DNA of 64,000 bases from Acidimicrobiia bacterium (GTDB taxonomy: Bacteria; Actinomycetota; Acidimicrobiia; Spongiisociales; ZC4RG35). The notes under the pieces were generated by a model. The model ran no database searches. It had not been told where the DNA came from and saw nothing but the letters and a program-made list of their open reading frames with translations. The stretch lies in NCBI GenBank assembly GCA_035304485.1, contig DATGPZ010000082.1:570-64569 (forward strand), in the 5' to 3' direction. Each line of letters begins with the position of its first letter. Within the stretch, counting starts at the first letter, position 1. This document shows positions 3-4,182 of the stretch, one piece after another. The translations under genes and the position numbers were made by a program.

Positions 3-155
3 GGTGAGGCGGGCACGATCGGATCCGCCCAGACGATCGTCAACGCGGTGGTGGACGCTCTCAGACCGCTGGGTGTGAAGCACGTAGACATGCCGCTGCG
101 TCCCAAACGGGTGTGGGAGGCGATCCAGGCCGCGCGAGCAGGGAGTGACAGCTGA
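3..155 (+). CDS. coxL: Partial CDS (3' end): molybdopterin-binding large subunit of an aerobic CO dehydrogenase / xanthine dehydrogenase family enzyme (CoxL-like)
   Basis: Frame-3 translation GEAGTIGSAQTIVNAVVDALRPLGVKHVDMPLRPKRVWEAIQAARAGSDS* resembles the conserved C-terminus of CoxL/XdhA large subunits. The stop overlaps the start of the next gene (coxM) as TGATG. Confidence 0.55.
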   Translation, partial: GEAGTIGSAQTIVNAVVDALRPLGVKHVDMPLRPKRVWEAIQAARAGSDS

Positions 156-1000
156 TGTATCCGAGAAAGTTCGACTATGTCGCCGCCACCAGCCTCGACG
201 AGGCGGTGTCCGCCCTGGCGAGCAGCGAGTTCGGCAAGGTGATGTCGGGTGGGATGTCGCTGCTCCCGATGATGAAGCTGCGGCTCCTGTCGCCGGAGAC
301 AGTGGTCGACATCGGCAGGATCCCCGGTCTCGACCAGATCAGCGATCGGGGGGACCACGTGGCGATCGGGGCGCTGGTCCGTCATGCCGAGGTCGCCGCA
401 TCCGACCTGCCCCGTGCCCTGACCGATGCCGCTGCCTGGACGGGCGACGTCCAGGTCAGAAACCGTGGCACGACCTGTGGAGCGGTCGCTCACAGCGACA
501 TCGCTGCGGACCAACCCGCCGCCGTGCTGGCGCTGGGGGCGACGATGGTGGCACAGGGACCCAACGGGACTCGGGAGATCGCCGCCGAGGACTTCTTCGT
601 CGACGCCATGACGTCGGCTCTGGAGCCCGAAGAGATCCTGACCGAGATCCGGATCCCCAAGGTGGGCGGCGCCACGGCTTACGACAAGCTCGGCCGACGC
701 GGCGGGCACACCGACTATGCGGTGGCCGGGGCGGCGGCCTGGGTCCAGAAGGACAACGGCTCGGTCTCTGCCTGTCGGGTGGCTCTCACTGGCGTCGGCA
801 CGAAAGCGACCCTGGCGCACGGTGTGGCCGAGGCTCTCGTCGGCACCGACGGGTCGGAGCAGGCCGTGAAGGAGGCGGCGAGCCGGGCCACTGAAGGGGT
901 GACGGTCCTGGAGGACTTGTACGGCTCGGAGGAGTACAAGGCCCACCTGGCCGAGGTCTTCACTCGCCGCGCCCTCACCCAAGCCCTCGCCCAACTGTGA
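155..1000 (+). CDS. coxM: FAD-binding medium subunit of CO dehydrogenase / xanthine dehydrogenase family (CoxM)
   Basis: 281 aa. FAD-binding PCMH-type domain with a CO dehydrogenase flavoprotein C-terminal domain. Start overlaps the coxL stop. Confidence 0.8.
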   Translation: MYPRKFDYVAATSLDEAVSALASSEFGKVMSGGMSLLPMMKLRLLSPETVVDIGRIPGLDQISDRGDHVAIGALVRHAEVAASDLPRALTDAAAWTGDVQVRNRGTTCGAVAHSDIAADQPAAVLALGATMVAQGPNGTREIAAEDFFVDAMTSALEPEEILTEIRIPKVGGATAYDKLGRRGGHTDYAVAGAAAWVQKDNGSVSACRVALTGVGTKATLAHGVAEALVGTDGSEQAVKEAASRATEGVTVLEDLYGSEEYKAHLAEVFTRRALTQALAQL

Positions 1001-1005
1001 GGCAT

Positions 1006-1062
1006 TCTTAAGACCGAAACGGGGCTTAAAACGCCCCGTTTCGGTCGAGAGAATCACACCGC
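1006..1062. repeat. Left terminal inverted repeat of the DUF559 cassette (contains an internal perfect hairpin)
   Basis: ttcttaagaccgaaacggggcttaaaacgccccgtttcggtcgagagaatcac. Its reverse complement recurs at about 2040-2096 with only a few indels/mismatches. The internal hairpin is aaacggggc-ttaaaa-gccccgttt. Confidence 0.6.
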
Positions 1063-1995
1063 AACGAAAGCACCCCGGCGGACCAGACGATTGCGGGCCC
1101 GGTGGATCCGGTCGACCACCACATCGGGCATCGTCCATATCTCGTAGTCCCAGACGACGACCACGGTGTATCCCGCCGCCTCGAGACGGGCGATGCGTTC
1201 GGCGTCCGCCTGTCGATGCGCCCAGGACGTGTGGTATCGCTCGCTGTGGATCTCGACGATGAGCGGGAGGTGGAGGTCGCAGTAGTCGACCCGCCCGATC
1301 CAGGAGGGTCCGTAGATATCGACCTGGCGTCGCAGGGTGGTGATGCCCCCGTCGGCGGCGATGATCTCGAATCGTCGCTCATTGTTGCTCTGGGGTGTCG
1401 GACTGTCATCATCGCGGTCCTCGAGGGCTCTGCGCATGAGACGGAGCCCGTTGCGGCCCTGTCGTGACATCTCCCAAGTGAAGTCCCATGCCTCGGCAAC
1501 GGTCAGGTCCCGATTGGCGAGGAAGTGGTCGAGGACCTGGAGGCCCTTCTGAGGTCCCTCGGATCCAAAGACGGTCAATGTGGTCAGGGCCGGAGCGGTG
1601 ACCGGGATGTCGAAGAGATGGGTCCGCTGTTCTGGAGGGATCCGGGTGAGATGGTGTACCCGGGCGGCCGCCGGGTCGGTGCGTTTGAGAGGCCGGCTCA
1701 CCGAGACATGGACGGGTTCCGGTCGAACGTGTTTCACACCCCACAGGGCAGCCGCGGTCAGATGTGACGCCATGGCGTCGTAGCCGACATCGAGGATCCC
1801 GGCCATCACCGTCTGCCACGGTGACGCTTCCGAGCCTCCAATTCGCAGGACTCTGGGCGTCAGGAACGTCAGGCGGCCGGAGCGGACGAGACGGCGGAGG
1901 GCCTTGCGGTCGTATCCGGCCTCCCGGGTCTGGCGACGGCTGATGAGCCCGTGCTGGCGTGCGGTGATCTCACGGATGGCGTTGAAGTCCGGCAT
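1054..1995 (-). CDS. DUF559 domain protein (Vsr/PD-(D/E)xK-like endonuclease-related)
   Basis: The 572-aa ORF in the track is over-extended. A typical DUF559 protein (313 aa) starts at MPDFNAIREITARQHGLISRRQ and has the conserved C-terminal block RVDYCDLHLPLIVEIHSERYHTSWAHRQADAERIARLEAAGYTVVVVWDYE. It sits between coxM and coxD on the opposite strand. Confidence 0.7.
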   Translation of the reverse strand: MPDFNAIREITARQHGLISRRQTREAGYDRKALRRLVRSGRLTFLTPRVLRIGGSEASPWQTVMAGILDVGYDAMASHLTAAALWGVKHVRPEPVHVSVSRPLKRTDPAAARVHHLTRIPPEQRTHLFDIPVTAPALTTLTVFGSEGPQKGLQVLDHFLANRDLTVAEAWDFTWEMSRQGRNGLRLMRRALEDRDDDSPTPQSNNERRFEIIAADGGITTLRRQVDIYGPSWIGRVDYCDLHLPLIVEIHSERYHTSWAHRQADAERIARLEAAGYTVVVVWDYEIWTMPDVVVDRIHRARNRLVRRGAFVAV

Positions 1996-2039
1996 ACAGG
2001 GCAACCTGTCACAGCCGGATGGCGGTGGGAAGGGGGTCG

Positions 2040-2096
2040 TGATTCTCCGCGTCAGAACGGGGCGTTTCGCGCCCCGTTCTGGTCTTAAGAACGCCA
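2040..2096. repeat. Right terminal inverted repeat of the DUF559 cassette
   Basis: gtgattctccgcgtcagaacggggcgtttcgcgccccgttctggtcttaagaa is the reverse complement of the left repeat, including the outer arms cttaagac and gagaatcac. Confidence 0.6.
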
Positions 2097-2109
2097 CTAG
2101 AGTGAGCGT

Positions 2110-2976
2110 GTGCGGTCGGTTGATGACGTCGTGGCAGCGTTCGAGGAACGCGGATACGTCGCCGACCGGAGCCTGGCGGTTTCGGTGCATCTCGCCCTGG
2201 AACTCGAGCGGCCCCTGTTCCTCGAGGGAGAGGCGGGAGTCGGAAAGACCGAGGTCGCCAAGGTCCTGGCGTCGATCTTCGACGAGCCCTTGATCCGGCT
2301 GCAGTGCTACGAGGGCCTGGACGTCAATCACGCGTTGTACGAATGGGACTACGCCCGCCAGATGCTGGCGATCCGTCTCATCGAGGCGGGGGGCGAGCAC
2401 AGCCACGCCGACGTCTCCGACATCATGTCGCGCGACTACCTGATCGCCCGTCCACTTCTCCAAGCCGTGGAACAGGCGGCGGGCGGTCGCCGGCCCGTGC
2501 TGCTGATCGATGAGCTGGATCGGGCGGACGAGGAGTTCGAGGCGTTCCTCCTCGAGTTGCTGTCCGACTTCCAAGTCACGATCCCCGAGGTAGGAACGAT
2601 CGCGGCCGAACGGCCTCCGATCGTCGTGATCACCTCCAATCGGACACGTGAGATCCACGACGCCCTCAAGCGTCGCTGCATTTACCAGTGGATCGACTAC
2701 CCCGACGTCGATCGGGAGGTGGCGATCGTCCGTCGGCGGATCCCCGATCTCGACGAGAAACTCGCCCGCCATCTGGCCGAGGCCATGAAGGACCTGCGGT
2801 CACTCGACCTGTTCAAGCCTCCGGGCGTGGCGGAGACACTCGATTGGGCACGGGCACTGCAGATTCTCGGAGCCGACGAACTTACCGACGAGGTGACCGA
2901 GGACACCCTGGGTGTGGTCTTGAAGTACCGCGAGGATGTCGAGACCGTCAAAGCGCATCGGGCTGCCTCGCTCTGA
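2110..2976 (+). CDS. coxD: MoxR-family AAA+ ATPase (CoxD-type CO dehydrogenase maturation factor)
   Basis: 288 aa. Walker A GEAGVGKT, Walker B LLIDELDRADEE, and a MoxR C-terminal region. GTG start. Confidence 0.8.
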   Translation: MRSVDDVVAAFEERGYVADRSLAVSVHLALELERPLFLEGEAGVGKTEVAKVLASIFDEPLIRLQCYEGLDVNHALYEWDYARQMLAIRLIEAGGEHSHADVSDIMSRDYLIARPLLQAVEQAAGGRRPVLLIDELDRADEEFEAFLLELLSDFQVTIPEVGTIAAERPPIVVITSNRTREIHDALKRRCIYQWIDYPDVDREVAIVRRRIPDLDEKLARHLAEAMKDLRSLDLFKPPGVAETLDWARALQILGADELTDEVTEDTLGVVLKYREDVETVKAHRAASL

Positions 2977-3099: not shown

Positions 3100-4182
3100 G
3101 TGATCGACCCGATCGCCAAACTGCACAGCCCCACGGGCTCCCTCGTCAGCCTCTATGTGAACCGCCGGGCCCAGGCCACCCGCGCAGCCCTCACCCAACT
3201 CTTGAAGAGCCTCTCGCAGGCAAACGGCAACAAGTACCTCCGGCGTGACGCCGATCGCATCTTGCAGCTGGCCGACACCATCGAATCGGACCCTGCGCCT
3301 GCGGCTGCGGTCTTCGCGTCCCATCGAGACGGAATCTTCGAGTTCCTCCCTCTCACCCACGAGGTGGAAGACATCGCCACGGTCGGCCCGCGTCCTCATC
3401 TGCGTCCCCTTCGGTCGCAGCCTCGACCGATGCGGGTCGGGGTCATCGTGGCGGACACAGCTCGGGCCAGGACGTTTGCTATGTCGGGGGGCGTCCTGCA
3501 CGAGTACGGCGAAGAGTTGGTCGCTGAGCGCGGAAAGGAGAACTACGGGGGCTTTTCCGGCTACGAGGAGCAACGGAACCGGGCCCGGGCCGTCGAGCTG
3601 TCGGCCAACCTGTGGCGCCAGGCGGGTCGGCGCCTGCTCGAAGCGCATCGAGACCAGCCGTTGGAGCTCTTGGTCATCGCCGGCCACGACGAGGACTTCG
3701 ATTCGATCGCGGTCGAACTGCACCCCTACCTCCGTCAGCTTCCCCAGGAACGCCTCGTCTTCGACACCGGTGCTTTCAACCAGTCCAGCCTGGCGGAGGG
3801 CGTGGCGGCAGCGGTGGAGAGGGAGCGCCGCAGGCTCTCCGAGGAGCTCTTGGATCGGCTGCTGGCCGAGGCCGGTCGGGGCGGATCCGCCGTCACGGGA
3901 TTGGCGCCCGTGCTCGAGGCATGCAACGCCCACGCCGTCGAGCAACTCGTGGTGGCGGGTCCTTTCGTCAAACCCGGTGTGATGTGCGACGGCTGCGGCT
4001 GGCTCGCCCGGGATGGCGAGACCTGTCCCCTGTGTGAAACGCCTACCTTTCCGATCGATGATGTCGTGTCGGCAGCCATGGATGCGACGGTCGAAGCGGG
4101 GGGAAGGTCCGAAATCGTCCGGGTCGCTAGCCCCCTGGACGCGGACGGAGTCGGGGCCTTCCTTCGCTTCCGTGTTCGCTGA
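3100..4182 (+). CDS. Conserved hypothetical protein; possible eRF1/Pelota-like (baeRF-type) fold with a C-terminal CxxC...CxxC zinc ribbon
   Basis: 360 aa, good coding signal, located between coxD and coxE. C-terminal motif CDGCGWLARDGETCPLC. No confident family assignment from sequence alone. Confidence 0.5.
   Translation: MIDPIAKLHSPTGSLVSLYVNRRAQATRAALTQLLKSLSQANGNKYLRRDADRILQLADTIESDPAPAAAVFASHRDGIFEFLPLTHEVEDIATVGPRPHLRPLRSQPRPMRVGVIVADTARARTFAMSGGVLHEYGEELVAERGKENYGGFSGYEEQRNRARAVELSANLWRQAGRRLLEAHRDQPLELLVIAGHDEDFDSIAVELHPYLRQLPQERLVFDTGAFNQSSLAEGVAAAVERERRRLSEELLDRLLAEAGRGGSAVTGLAPVLEACNAHAVEQLVVAGPFVKPGVMCDGCGWLARDGETCPLCETPTFPIDDVVSAAMDATVEAGGRSEIVRVASPLDADGVGAFLRFRVR

What the first reader, a model, noticed from the sequence alone, without database searches (positions are those of the whole stretch)
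1005..2098. DUF559 endonuclease-like gene flanked by approximately 55-bp terminal inverted repeats, inserted into the cox operon between coxM and coxD
The 1.09-kb segment between coxM (stop 1000) and coxD (start 2110) carries a single minus-strand DUF559 gene. It is bounded by near-identical inverted repeats (left ttcttaagaccgaaacggggcttaaaacgccccgtttcggtcgagagaatcac; right is its reverse complement with 3-4 differences). Each repeat itself contains a perfect hairpin. The gene stop lies inside the left repeat. The architecture (one ORF plus TIRs, opposite strand, interrupting an otherwise co-directional maturation operon) looks like a mobile or selfish cassette rather than a native cox component. 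DUF559 genes are multi-copy in many actinobacteria, but their mobility has not been clearly described.
Basis: seen in the sequence. Interest (0 to 1): 0.65.

Follow-up and report, generated by a model that had tools for sequence, protein, structure and literature searches.

The report
Palindrome-bounded nuclease gene cassette in cox cluster
A 1.1-kb single-gene unit, encoding a DNA-binding protein fused to a homing-endonuclease-type nuclease and bracketed by two copies of one long palindrome, settled long ago between two CO-dehydrogenase genes; it belongs to a very large family of similarly bracketed gene cassettes for which I found no published description.

Summary
A 313-aa minus-strand gene (1054-1995) lies between coxM and coxD. 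It is flanked by 57-nt inverted repeats (1001-1057 and 2039-2095), and each repeat contains a strong hairpin. The arms are 77% alike, not "3-4 differences".

The protein is an AbiEi-like DNA-binding module fused to a DUF559/Vsr nuclease whose fold matches the homing endonuclease I-Bth0305I.

The unit is old and fixed here:
- Orthologues at 60-75% identity occupy the same site in at least eight related Acidimicrobiia species.
- They are under purifying selection (dN/dS 0.09-0.30).
- The two arms of each genome evolve in concert.
- Two nested species lack the gene but keep one arm.

The unit has also moved, arms included. Its sister lineage sits at a ligA locus with the same ends, and an empty version of that site has no arm.

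Among distant homologues from metagenomes, 49 of 53 loci carry matching palindromes on both sides, against 0 of 56 control windows. The units usually abut the stop codons of neighbouring genes. No copies were found on plasmids or phages, there is no target duplication, and there are no multi-copy bursts.

Best reading: an ancient, rarely mobile selfish cassette family. That the protein acts on its own palindromic ends is inferred, not shown.

The parts
155..1000 (+). coxM (CO dehydrogenase flavoprotein subunit). Left neighbour; its stop codon ends at 1000, directly abutting the left arm.
   Evidence: Pfam FAD_binding_5 2e-44 and CO_deh_flav_C 1e-20.
1001..1057 (.). Left (gene-distal) arm of the inverted repeat. 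Outer end GGCATTCTTAAGACC, hairpin 1012-1046 (14-bp stem, 7-nt loop), inner end GAGAATCAC, which contains the gene's stop codon.
   Evidence: The hairpin is supported by covariation across 20 homologous arms.
1054..1995 (-). 313-aa gene: an AbiEi-like winged-helix plus AbiEi C-terminal-like domain fused to a DUF559/Vsr-type (EDxHD-like) nuclease.
   Evidence: Pfam. PADLOC AbiEi 9e-25. AF2 model with pLDDT 90. Foldseek matches 6y8q, 1zel, 3r3p and 3hrl. PDB profile search: 3hrl 4.9e-6, 3r3p 0.017. Invariant R235, D237, S251, H255, D264. dN/dS 0.09-0.30.
1996..2038 (-). Probable promoter or regulatory stretch of the cassette gene. Contains the TGTGACA motif (2007-2013, read on the minus strand), an ACAGGT hexamer 8 nt before the ATG, and ACCCCCTTCC (complement of 2028-2037).
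   Evidence: TGTCACA-type motif about 20-30 nt upstream of the start in many family members; ACCCCCTTCC in the window subfamily. The function is inferred.
2039..2095 (.). Right (gene-proximal) arm. Inner end GTGATTCTC, hairpin 2053-2081 (12-bp stem, 5-nt loop), outer end GGTCTTAAGAACGCC.
2098..2103 (+). TAGAGT, a -10-like hexamer 6 nt upstream of the coxD GTG. Suggests coxD has its own, leaderless-type promoter just outside the cassette.
   Evidence: By inspection, a TANNNT hexamer 6-9 nt before the coxD start in most of the 33 related loci, filled or empty. Inferred, not tested.
2110..2976 (+). coxD (MoxR-type AAA ATPase). Right neighbour.
   Evidence: Pfam AAA_5 3e-11 and AAA 8.5e-9. Synteny.

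Best explanation
Window 1001-2095 is one self-contained cassette. It is a member of a very large chromosomal family found mainly in Acidimicrobiia and other Actinomycetota. Each member is about 1.05-1.2 kb and consists of a palindromic arm, a short promoter region, a roughly 310-aa gene, and a second copy of the same palindrome.

Shown:
- The cassette entered the spacer between the coxSLM and coxD transcription units in the ancestor of a clade.
- It has since been inherited vertically, with its nuclease motif and its arms conserved.
- It was lost once by a deletion that left a solo arm.
- Related cassettes sit at unrelated loci with the same ends, so the unit moves, rarely, with its arms.
- The arms are strong hairpin-forming palindromes that sit right against the neighbours' stop codons.
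- The two arms of one unit stay alike while diverging between genomes.

Inferred:
- The encoded protein works as a homodimer that recognises its own palindromes. AbiEi proteins bind inverted repeats in their promoters. The I-Bth0305I nuclease is a homodimer with a roughly 60-bp footprint on a pseudopalindromic target.
- The upstream arm would act as an operator for autorepression.
- The pair of arms would define the ends at which the nuclease cuts, with host repair or recombination moving or copying the unit.
- As RNA or DNA hairpins, the arms would also insulate the cassette and replace the terminator of the flanking host gene. That would make the insertion harmless and allow long persistence.
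For: Anatomy and protein.

Same site across a clade:
- Orthologues at 60-75% identity sit between coxM and coxD.
- All carry 39-61-nt inverted arms.
- The protein tree is broadly congruent with the Cox tree.
- dN/dS is 0.09-0.30 with dS mostly above 1.

Behaviour of the arms:
- Concerted evolution: within-genome arm identity averages 0.82, against 0.71 and 0.67 for orthologous arms between genomes.
- Hairpin covariation: 87% of cells paired, 11 of 20 pairs with compensatory changes, 0 of 500 shuffles as good.

Movement with the arms:
- The sister lineage L109 lies between a hypothetical gene and ligA, with GCTTTTTATGACC...GGTCATAAAAAGC ends.
- The empty version of that site (L192/L193) has a 74-nt gap with no arm.
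- L040 and L111 have the same type of ends in other contexts.
- The end motif occurs in 870 kb of fetched DNA only at the ends of DUF559 genes, as +/- pairs about 1.08-1.12 kb apart wherever both ends are on the contig.

Family-wide:
- 49 of 53 distant homologue loci have matching flanking palindromes, against 0 of 56 displaced control windows.
- Stop codons of neighbours face the unit 35 times against 7, at gaps of 0-36 nt.
- The family holds 4,991 clusters at 50% identity with E<=1e-30.

Literature: AbiEi binds inverted repeats (PMC7319586). I-Bth0305I is a homodimer with a 60-bp footprint and a pseudopalindromic site (PMC3239194).
Against: - No binding or cleavage data exist. The link between the protein and the arms is an inference from relatives.
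- No target-site duplication was found, and no recognised transposase or recombinase fold.
- There are no multi-copy or identical copies at different loci.
- No homologue was found on plasmids or in viral contigs.
- Proteins at 75-80% identity or more always share flanking genes. Mobility is therefore very rare, and persistence under purifying selection could reflect a benefit to the host rather than selfishness.
- In many other subfamilies the arms align better as direct than as inverted repeats. One mechanism may not fit all members.
- The trees are neighbour-joining without bootstrap, and they are built from the flanking genes themselves.
Confidence: 0.6

Rival explanations
1. This is an ordinary host gene, for example a defence, Abi-like or repair nuclease. 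It happens to be insulated by a bidirectional terminator on each side and has an operator upstream. The arms stay alike through gene conversion. The gene reached different loci passively, by horizontal transfer or illegitimate recombination, and has no mobility of its own.
For: - Long vertical inheritance with dN/dS of 0.09-0.30.
- Single copy; absent from plasmids and phages.
- The arms abut neighbours' stop codons, where terminators belong.
- The window arms have A-tract / GC stem / U-rich tails.
- The AbiEi module is a known autoregulator (PMC7319586).
- GC content equals that of the surroundings.
Against: - Independent terminators have no reason to be copies of each other in 49 of 53 loci, nor to travel with the gene to unrelated loci.
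- The right arm lies upstream of two divergent genes, which is not a terminator position.
- The terminator scan calls neither arm.
- Stems of 15-25 bp without U-tracts are common in the family.
Confidence: 0.25
2. The gene inserted into a host terminator hairpin with a long target duplication, as described for restriction-modification genes. On this reading the two arms are duplicated host sequence, not element ends.
For: - Many family members have arms that are better direct than inverted repeats, some 97-98% identical (L139, L182).
- Units sit at the 3' ends of genes.
- Stems differ completely between proteins that are 70% identical but sit at different loci (L156 and L173).
- There is precedent in PMC2853133.
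Against: - For the window's subfamily the arms are clearly inverted (L032: 93% inverted against about 70% direct).
- The same ends occur at unrelated loci (cox, ligA and others).
- The empty ligA site has no hairpin.
- The single hairpin in L030/L033 matches the arms of its nearest filled relatives and is phylogenetically nested, so it is a remnant rather than a target.
Confidence: 0.1
3. This is a RAYT/REP-like arrangement: a domesticated nuclease flanked by its cognate palindromes, which are also dispersed around the genome as non-autonomous repeats.
For: The gene is flanked by paired palindromes, is single-copy and is vertically inherited, as RAYTs are. Some units have tandemly duplicated arms (L139, L153, L163, L177).
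Against: - No further copy of the arm in the 64-kb window, even allowing 2 mismatches.
- None within 3 kb either side of 40 other units.
- None in 870 kb of related loci.
- The protein is not a HUH/Y1 enzyme.
Confidence: 0.03
4. This is an invertible (phase-variable) segment. The inverted repeats are recombination sites that flip the gene.
For: Inverted repeats flank the gene. In one set of related loci the unit lies in the opposite orientation next to the same neighbour (L143 against L137 and L145).
Against: - The promoter lies inside the unit, so inversion would switch nothing.
- No invertase gene is nearby.
- Orientation is constant in all cox-clade genomes.
- In the L143 case the longer, promoter-side arm moved with the gene, which points to reinsertion of the whole unit.
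Confidence: 0.02

Closest known systems
Free-standing homing endonuclease genes of the EDxHD/Vsr-like family (prototype I-Bth0305I; PMC3239194)
   Same: - The C-terminal nuclease fold matches (3r3p, TM 0.69-0.71; profile E 0.017).
- Both have a multidomain layout with an N-terminal DNA-binding part.
- The prototype is a homodimer that covers about 60 bp of a pseudopalindromic site, which is similar in size and symmetry to the 50-60-bp arms.
- Both are single-gene selfish-looking units in conserved gene neighbourhoods.
   Different: - I-Bth0305I lives in a phage group I intron and has no flanking repeats.
- Here the DNA-binding part is an AbiEi module.
- The unit is intergenic and bracketed by twin palindromes.
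- Its distribution in the cox clade is vertical rather than sporadic, and the gene has not decayed.
[quoted passage not shown]
   Same: - Compact nuclease-gene units with 26-65-bp imperfect inverted repeats unique to the unit.
- No transposase gene.
- Insertion detected by comparison with empty sites.
- A direct-repeat variant also exists.
   Different: - Those were isolated cases with 8-bp target duplications.
- Here there is one gene and no methyltransferase.
- Each arm is itself a long hairpin.
- No target duplication was found.
- The architecture recurs across thousands of protein clusters.
AbiEi antitoxin of type IV AbiE toxin-antitoxin systems (PMC3985639, PMC7319586)
   Same: The N-terminal 200 aa match AbiEi by sequence (9e-25) and by fold (6y8q and Rv2827c). 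AbiEi proteins bind inverted repeats upstream of their own gene.
   Different: No AbiEii (DUF1814) toxin gene is adjacent. Instead, a nuclease is fused in cis. A palindrome is present downstream of the gene as well as upstream.
RAYT genes flanked by REP/REPIN palindromes; IS200/IS605 ends (from my own knowledge, not tested against a paper here)
   Same: A single-copy nuclease-type gene is bracketed by hairpin-forming repeats that co-evolve with it. Inheritance is long-term and vertical.
   Different: The enzyme fold is different (PD-(D/E)XK/Vsr, not HUH). No dispersed copies of the palindromes were found.

Membership tests
DUF559 / Vsr-like (EDxHD) nuclease | Sequence match to the family model above its curated threshold | tested here: met
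   PF04480: 27.5 bits against a cut-off of 20.6. Profile against PDB chain 3hrl: E 4.9e-6.
DUF559 / Vsr-like (EDxHD) nuclease | Vsr-type nuclease fold | tested here: met
   The AF2 model (pLDDT 90) matches 3r3p and 3hrl with target TM of 0.69-0.71.
DUF559 / Vsr-like (EDxHD) nuclease | Conserved acidic and histidine catalytic residues | tested here: met
   E206, D237, H255 and D264 are invariant and E248 is at least 90% conserved in 45 homologues at 33-85% identity. The exact mapping onto the EDxHD residues was not verified.
DUF559 / Vsr-like (EDxHD) nuclease | DNA cleavage activity | not testable with these tools
   Needs biochemistry.
AbiE type IV toxin-antitoxin system | AbiEi antitoxin domains (wHTH plus C-terminal domain) | tested here: met
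   PF13338 at 33.4 bits and PF09407 at 25.2 bits, both above cut-off. PADLOC AbiEi 9e-25. Foldseek 6y8q at 4.8e-5.
AbiE type IV toxin-antitoxin system | Adjacent AbiEii (DUF1814 nucleotidyltransferase) toxin gene in a bicistronic operon | tested here: not met
   The neighbours are coxM and coxD in the window and in all orthologous loci.
Homing endonuclease gene | Presence/absence at the same site in close relatives, with an intact target in the empty allele | tested here: inconclusive
   L030 and L033 lack the gene. However, their spacer is a solo arm left by a deletion.
Homing endonuclease gene | Sporadic distribution that is incongruent with host phylogeny | tested here: not met
   The cox-clade proteins are monophyletic and broadly congruent with the Cox tree; r is 0.70 for pairwise identities.
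Insertion sequence / DNA transposon with terminal inverted repeats | Terminal inverted repeats that bound the unit and move with it | tested here: met
Insertion sequence / DNA transposon with terminal inverted repeats | A transposase of a recognised family (DDE, HUH, serine or tyrosine) | tested here: not met
   Only AbiEi and DUF559 domains were found.
Insertion sequence / DNA transposon with terminal inverted repeats | Target-site duplication | tested here: not met
   The bases outside the ends do not repeat in the window, L031, L040, L045 or L109.
Insertion sequence / DNA transposon with terminal inverted repeats | Several near-identical copies per genome | tested here: inconclusive
   None in the 64-kb window or in the fetched flanks. 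Identical proteins are always found in one context. Whole genomes could not be scanned.
Intrinsic bidirectional terminator | Short GC-rich stem-loop followed by a U-tract on both strands, at the 3' end of a transcription unit | tested here: inconclusive
   - A GC stem with A/U-rich shoulders is present.
- The consensus scan calls neither arm.
- The right arm lies upstream of two divergent genes.
- Many family arms have 15-25-bp stems without a U-tract.
RAYT/REP system | Dispersed genomic copies of the flanking palindrome | tested here: not met

The most novel reading that the evidence does not exclude
AbiEi-DUF559 cassettes are a new class of autonomous mobile element. In this class a Vsr/EDxHD-type nuclease, fused to an AbiEi DNA-binding module, recognises the element's own long palindromic (hairpin or cruciform) ends. 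It mobilises the unit without a conventional transposase and without target duplication. The ends then double as replacement terminators for the host genes.
Probability: 0.3. Interest if true: 0.85.

Novelty: new variant of a known kind. Interest (0 to 1): 0.68.

Why it matters
DUF559/AbiEi-fusion genes are among the commonest unexplained genes in Actinomycetota. This profile alone finds about 5,000 clusters at 50% identity with E<=1e-30 and about 20,000 with E<=1e-10.

Showing that they almost always come as about 1.1-kb units bracketed by twin palindromes does three things:
- It gives the family a defined anatomy and a concrete hypothesis: the protein acts on its own ends.
- It provides ready substrates for biochemistry.
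- If the nuclease mobilises the unit, it adds a transposase-free route of gene mobility, and possibly new long-site, palindrome-specific nucleases.

For annotation of cox clusters, it shows that the gene between coxM and coxD is a passenger sitting at an operon boundary. It is not a maturation factor.

Tried and rejected
- **Exact-sequence look-up** of the window protein found nothing. The source was reached through CoxM and CoxD instead.
- **L018/L019** looked like short-gap 'empty' contigs but simply start inside the gene.
- **Plasmids**, **IMG/VR viral contigs**, **PHROGs** and **Rfam** gave no relevant match.
- **Terminator and promoter scan** called nothing at the arms.
- **A universal end motif** (TTYT...ARAA) was tested. 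It is enriched (14 of 94 arms against 2 of 940 background) but not general.
- **Target-site duplication** was looked for by eye at five units and not found.
- **Dispersed REP-like copies** were not found.
- **L030/L033 as virgin target sites** was rejected after phylogeny and arm matching.
- **Multi-locus identical copies:** P0003 and P0100 each occur in a single context.
- **Literature searches** for DUF559, MTES_1575 and AbiEi together with inverted repeats found no description of this architecture.
Full report
**1. Checking the observation**

The window begins at the end of coxL. coxM runs 155-1000 and coxD 2110-2976. A baeRF-family gene and coxE follow.

The only convincing gene in the 1.1-kb gap is on the minus strand, 1054-1995, 313 aa. 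It has AbiEi_4, AbiEi_1 and DUF559 matches above Pfam's thresholds. The 572-aa ORF in the mechanical list only reflects the absence of a stop codon antisense to coxD.

The repeat finder gives arms at 1001-1057 and 2039-2095, 57 nt, 77% complementary. Each arm holds a perfect stem of 14 bp (left) or 12 bp (right). The left arm region folds at -39.4 kcal/mol, z -8.6. The core pattern and the outer motif each occur only at these two places in 64 kb, against chance expectations of 0.06 and 0.18.

There are 12 differences in the quoted 53 nt, and four of them are compensatory in the stem.

**2. The protein**

- PADLOC matches AbiEi at 9e-25 over residues 3-146.
- An AlphaFold model built on 45 homologues has pLDDT 90.
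- In Foldseek, the first 200 or so residues match the AbiEi antitoxin (6y8q) and Rv2827c (1zel). The C-terminal domain matches the catalytic domain of the homing endonuclease I-Bth0305I (3r3p, target TM 0.69-0.71) and the DUF559 structure 3hrl.
- A profile search of PDB sequences agrees: 3hrl 4.9e-6, 3r3p 0.017.
- In 45 homologues at 33-85% identity, E206, R208, Q224, R235, D237, S251, H255 and D264 are invariant, and E248 is nearly so.
- No AbiEii toxin gene is adjacent.

**3. Same site across a clade**

Homologues at 75, 71, 66 and 62% identity all lie between coxM and coxD on the opposite strand.

A scan of species-representative genomes with CoxM returned 79 Acidimicrobiia loci. tblastn shows the gene in the window species and in L031, L032, L034, L035, L036 and L045, where CoxM is 83-88% identical. 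L026 also carries it.

All of these have 39-61-nt inverted arms with the outer end G(C/G)TTTTTAT-(GACC/CAGC).

The cassette proteins form one clade whose topology broadly follows the CoxL+M+D tree. dN/dS is 0.09-0.30 with dS mostly above 1. GC content equals that of the flanks. This is an old, vertically inherited insertion under purifying selection.

**4. The arms are constrained and evolve in concert**

- Within a genome the two arms are on average 82% alike. Orthologous arms between genomes are 71% (left) and 67% (right) alike.
- On 20 arms, the hairpin is paired in 87% of cells, and 11 of 20 pairs show compensatory changes. No shuffle out of 500 reaches the observed score, and slid controls pair at only 38-55%.
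- Symmetry could reflect hairpin or cruciform formation, or binding of a symmetric dimer. Covariation alone cannot separate these.

**5. "Empty" sites**

L030 and L033 (CoxM 87-89% identical) have only 65 nt between coxM and coxD, containing one hairpin. They are nested inside the filled clade, next to L031.

Their hairpin matches the arms of their nearest filled relatives, with scores of 26-35. For L034 the match includes the inner GCAG and the outer CATAA. It does not match the arms of L035, L036 or L045 (scores 23 or less).

The right junction can be derived from a filled one by a 10-bp slippage between CATAA repeats. I therefore read these sites as secondary deletions that kept one arm.

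More distant relatives have short gaps with unrelated hairpins, or other genes in the gap: rhodanese, a PIN-like gene, or a hydrolase plus Hsp20.

By inspection, most of the 33 loci have a TANNNT hexamer 6-9 nt before the coxD start, whether filled or empty. The cassette therefore sits at a boundary between transcription units, not inside an operon.

**6. The unit has moved with its arms**

In the complete chromosome OZ244213.1, a protein 62% identical to the window's (the sister lineage of the cox clade) lies between a hypothetical gene and ligA. It is bounded by GCTTTTTATGACC... and ...GGTCATAAAAAGC.

A relative with the same two neighbours (L192/L193) has them convergent with a 74-nt gap that contains no arm and no strong hairpin. 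L190 has a DUF2339 gene in that position.

The same chromosome also carries a 36%-identical family member just after coxM's own terminator, with 75-nt arms of the same type. L111 (48% identity, yet another context) has ends GTTTCTTAGGATCGAAACG, which resemble the window's CATTCTTAAGACCGAAACG.

In 870 kb of fetched DNA the end motif occurs only at the ends of these genes, as +/- pairs about 1.08-1.12 kb apart wherever both ends are on the contig. No target duplication is visible at any of these units.

**7. The family**

A metagenome scan with the alignment gave 80 loci at 30-75% identity.

- Flanking repeats with z of 7-41 occur at most of these loci, with unit spans of 1.05-1.2 kb.
- With a fixed score threshold, 49 of 53 testable loci pass, against 0 of 56 same-size windows displaced along the same contigs. 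The maximum control score is 28 and the median real score is 69.
- Arm sequences differ between subfamilies, but the two arms of a unit are 80-98% alike. Some arms are tandemly doubled.
- No extra copies lie within 3 kb on either side.
- In the window's subfamily the arms are inverted. In several other subfamilies they align better as direct repeats of a palindrome.
- Units lie 0-36 nt from their neighbours and face stop codons 35 times against 7. This rests on heuristic ORF calls.
- Proteins at 75-80% identity or more share flanking genes. Pairs at 57-73% identity often do not.
- In one set of related loci the whole unit lies in the opposite orientation beside the same neighbour.
- A TGTCACA-type motif about 20-30 nt upstream of the start recurs across the family.
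- The profile finds 4,991 clusters at 50% identity with E<=1e-30 and 20,495 with E<=1e-10.
- There is no homologue in PLSDB plasmids or in IMG/VR. Identical proteins always occur in a single context.

**8. Interpretation**

Shown:
- This is a self-contained, palindrome-bounded, single-gene cassette of foreign origin.
- It is ancient at this site and maintained by selection.
- It belongs to a large family whose members occupy many unrelated intergenic sites, mostly at the 3' ends of genes, and carry their ends with them.

Inferred:
- The protein recognises its own arms. AbiEi proteins bind inverted repeats (PMC7319586). I-Bth0305I is a homodimer footprinting about 60 bp on a pseudopalindromic site (PMC3239194).
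- The upstream arm would serve as an operator, and both arms as the ends used in rare mobilisation through host repair.
- The hairpins would also replace the neighbours' terminators, so insertions are tolerated.

The main rival is a non-mobile host gene with terminators on both sides. It explains the persistence and the low copy number. It does not explain why the two arms are copies of each other nearly everywhere, nor why they travel with the gene.

Long target duplication (PMC2853133) may apply to the direct-repeat subfamilies, but not here.

**9. Novelty and limits**

I found no paper describing this architecture. The closest concepts are EDxHD homing endonucleases, inverted-repeat-flanked restriction-modification units, and RAYT/REP.

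Limits of this analysis:
- The trees are neighbour-joining without support values, and they are built from the flanking genes themselves.
- ORF contexts are heuristic.
- Whole genomes could not be scanned for extra arm copies.
- No biochemical data exist.

Noticed in passing
window 3100-4182: A 360-aa gene of the bacterial eRF1-like baeRF_family10 sits between coxD and coxE. It is conserved at that position in all related cox clusters examined. That is an unusual partner for CO-dehydrogenase maturation genes.
   Followed up: no
L038, L039, L049, L060, L067, L077, L086, L093, L107 (the gap after coxM): The coxM-coxD spacer is a hot spot for unrelated inserted genes in other Acidimicrobiia. Found there: rhodanese-like genes (five loci), a PIN-like gene, an alpha/beta hydrolase plus Hsp20, and a membrane protein.
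   Followed up: partly
window 2098-2103 and the equivalent positions in L030-L108: By inspection, a TANNNT hexamer lies 6-9 nt upstream of the coxD start codon in most of the 33 relatives examined. This suggests a leaderless coxD transcript with its own promoter.
   Followed up: partly
L014:1, L017:1; L005-L009 ends: Short-read metagenome contigs of this species repeatedly break at the hairpin arms. For example, L014 starts at CAGAACGGGG of the right hairpin. This is probably an assembly effect of the palindromes.
   Followed up: no
L139:33-144 and 1200-1311; L153, L163, L177, L124: Some family members carry two tandem copies of the hairpin on one or both sides of the gene. In L139 each side has a 112-nt double hairpin, and the two sides are 97% identical as direct repeats.
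   Followed up: partly
L143 versus L137 and L145: Proteins 75% identical lie beside the same right-hand neighbour gene, but with the whole unit in the opposite orientation. The longer promoter-side arm is inverted along with the gene.
   Followed up: partly
L172:~170-225: Four tandem copies of GGTCAGAGCCT lie between the upstream arm and the TGTCA motif of one family member.
   Followed up: no
L026 (GCA_965612075.1): Its CoxL is only 69% identical to the window species' CoxL, while CoxM and CoxD are 82-83% identical. This places it oddly in the concatenated tree. It may reflect a replaced or paralogous coxL.
   Followed up: no
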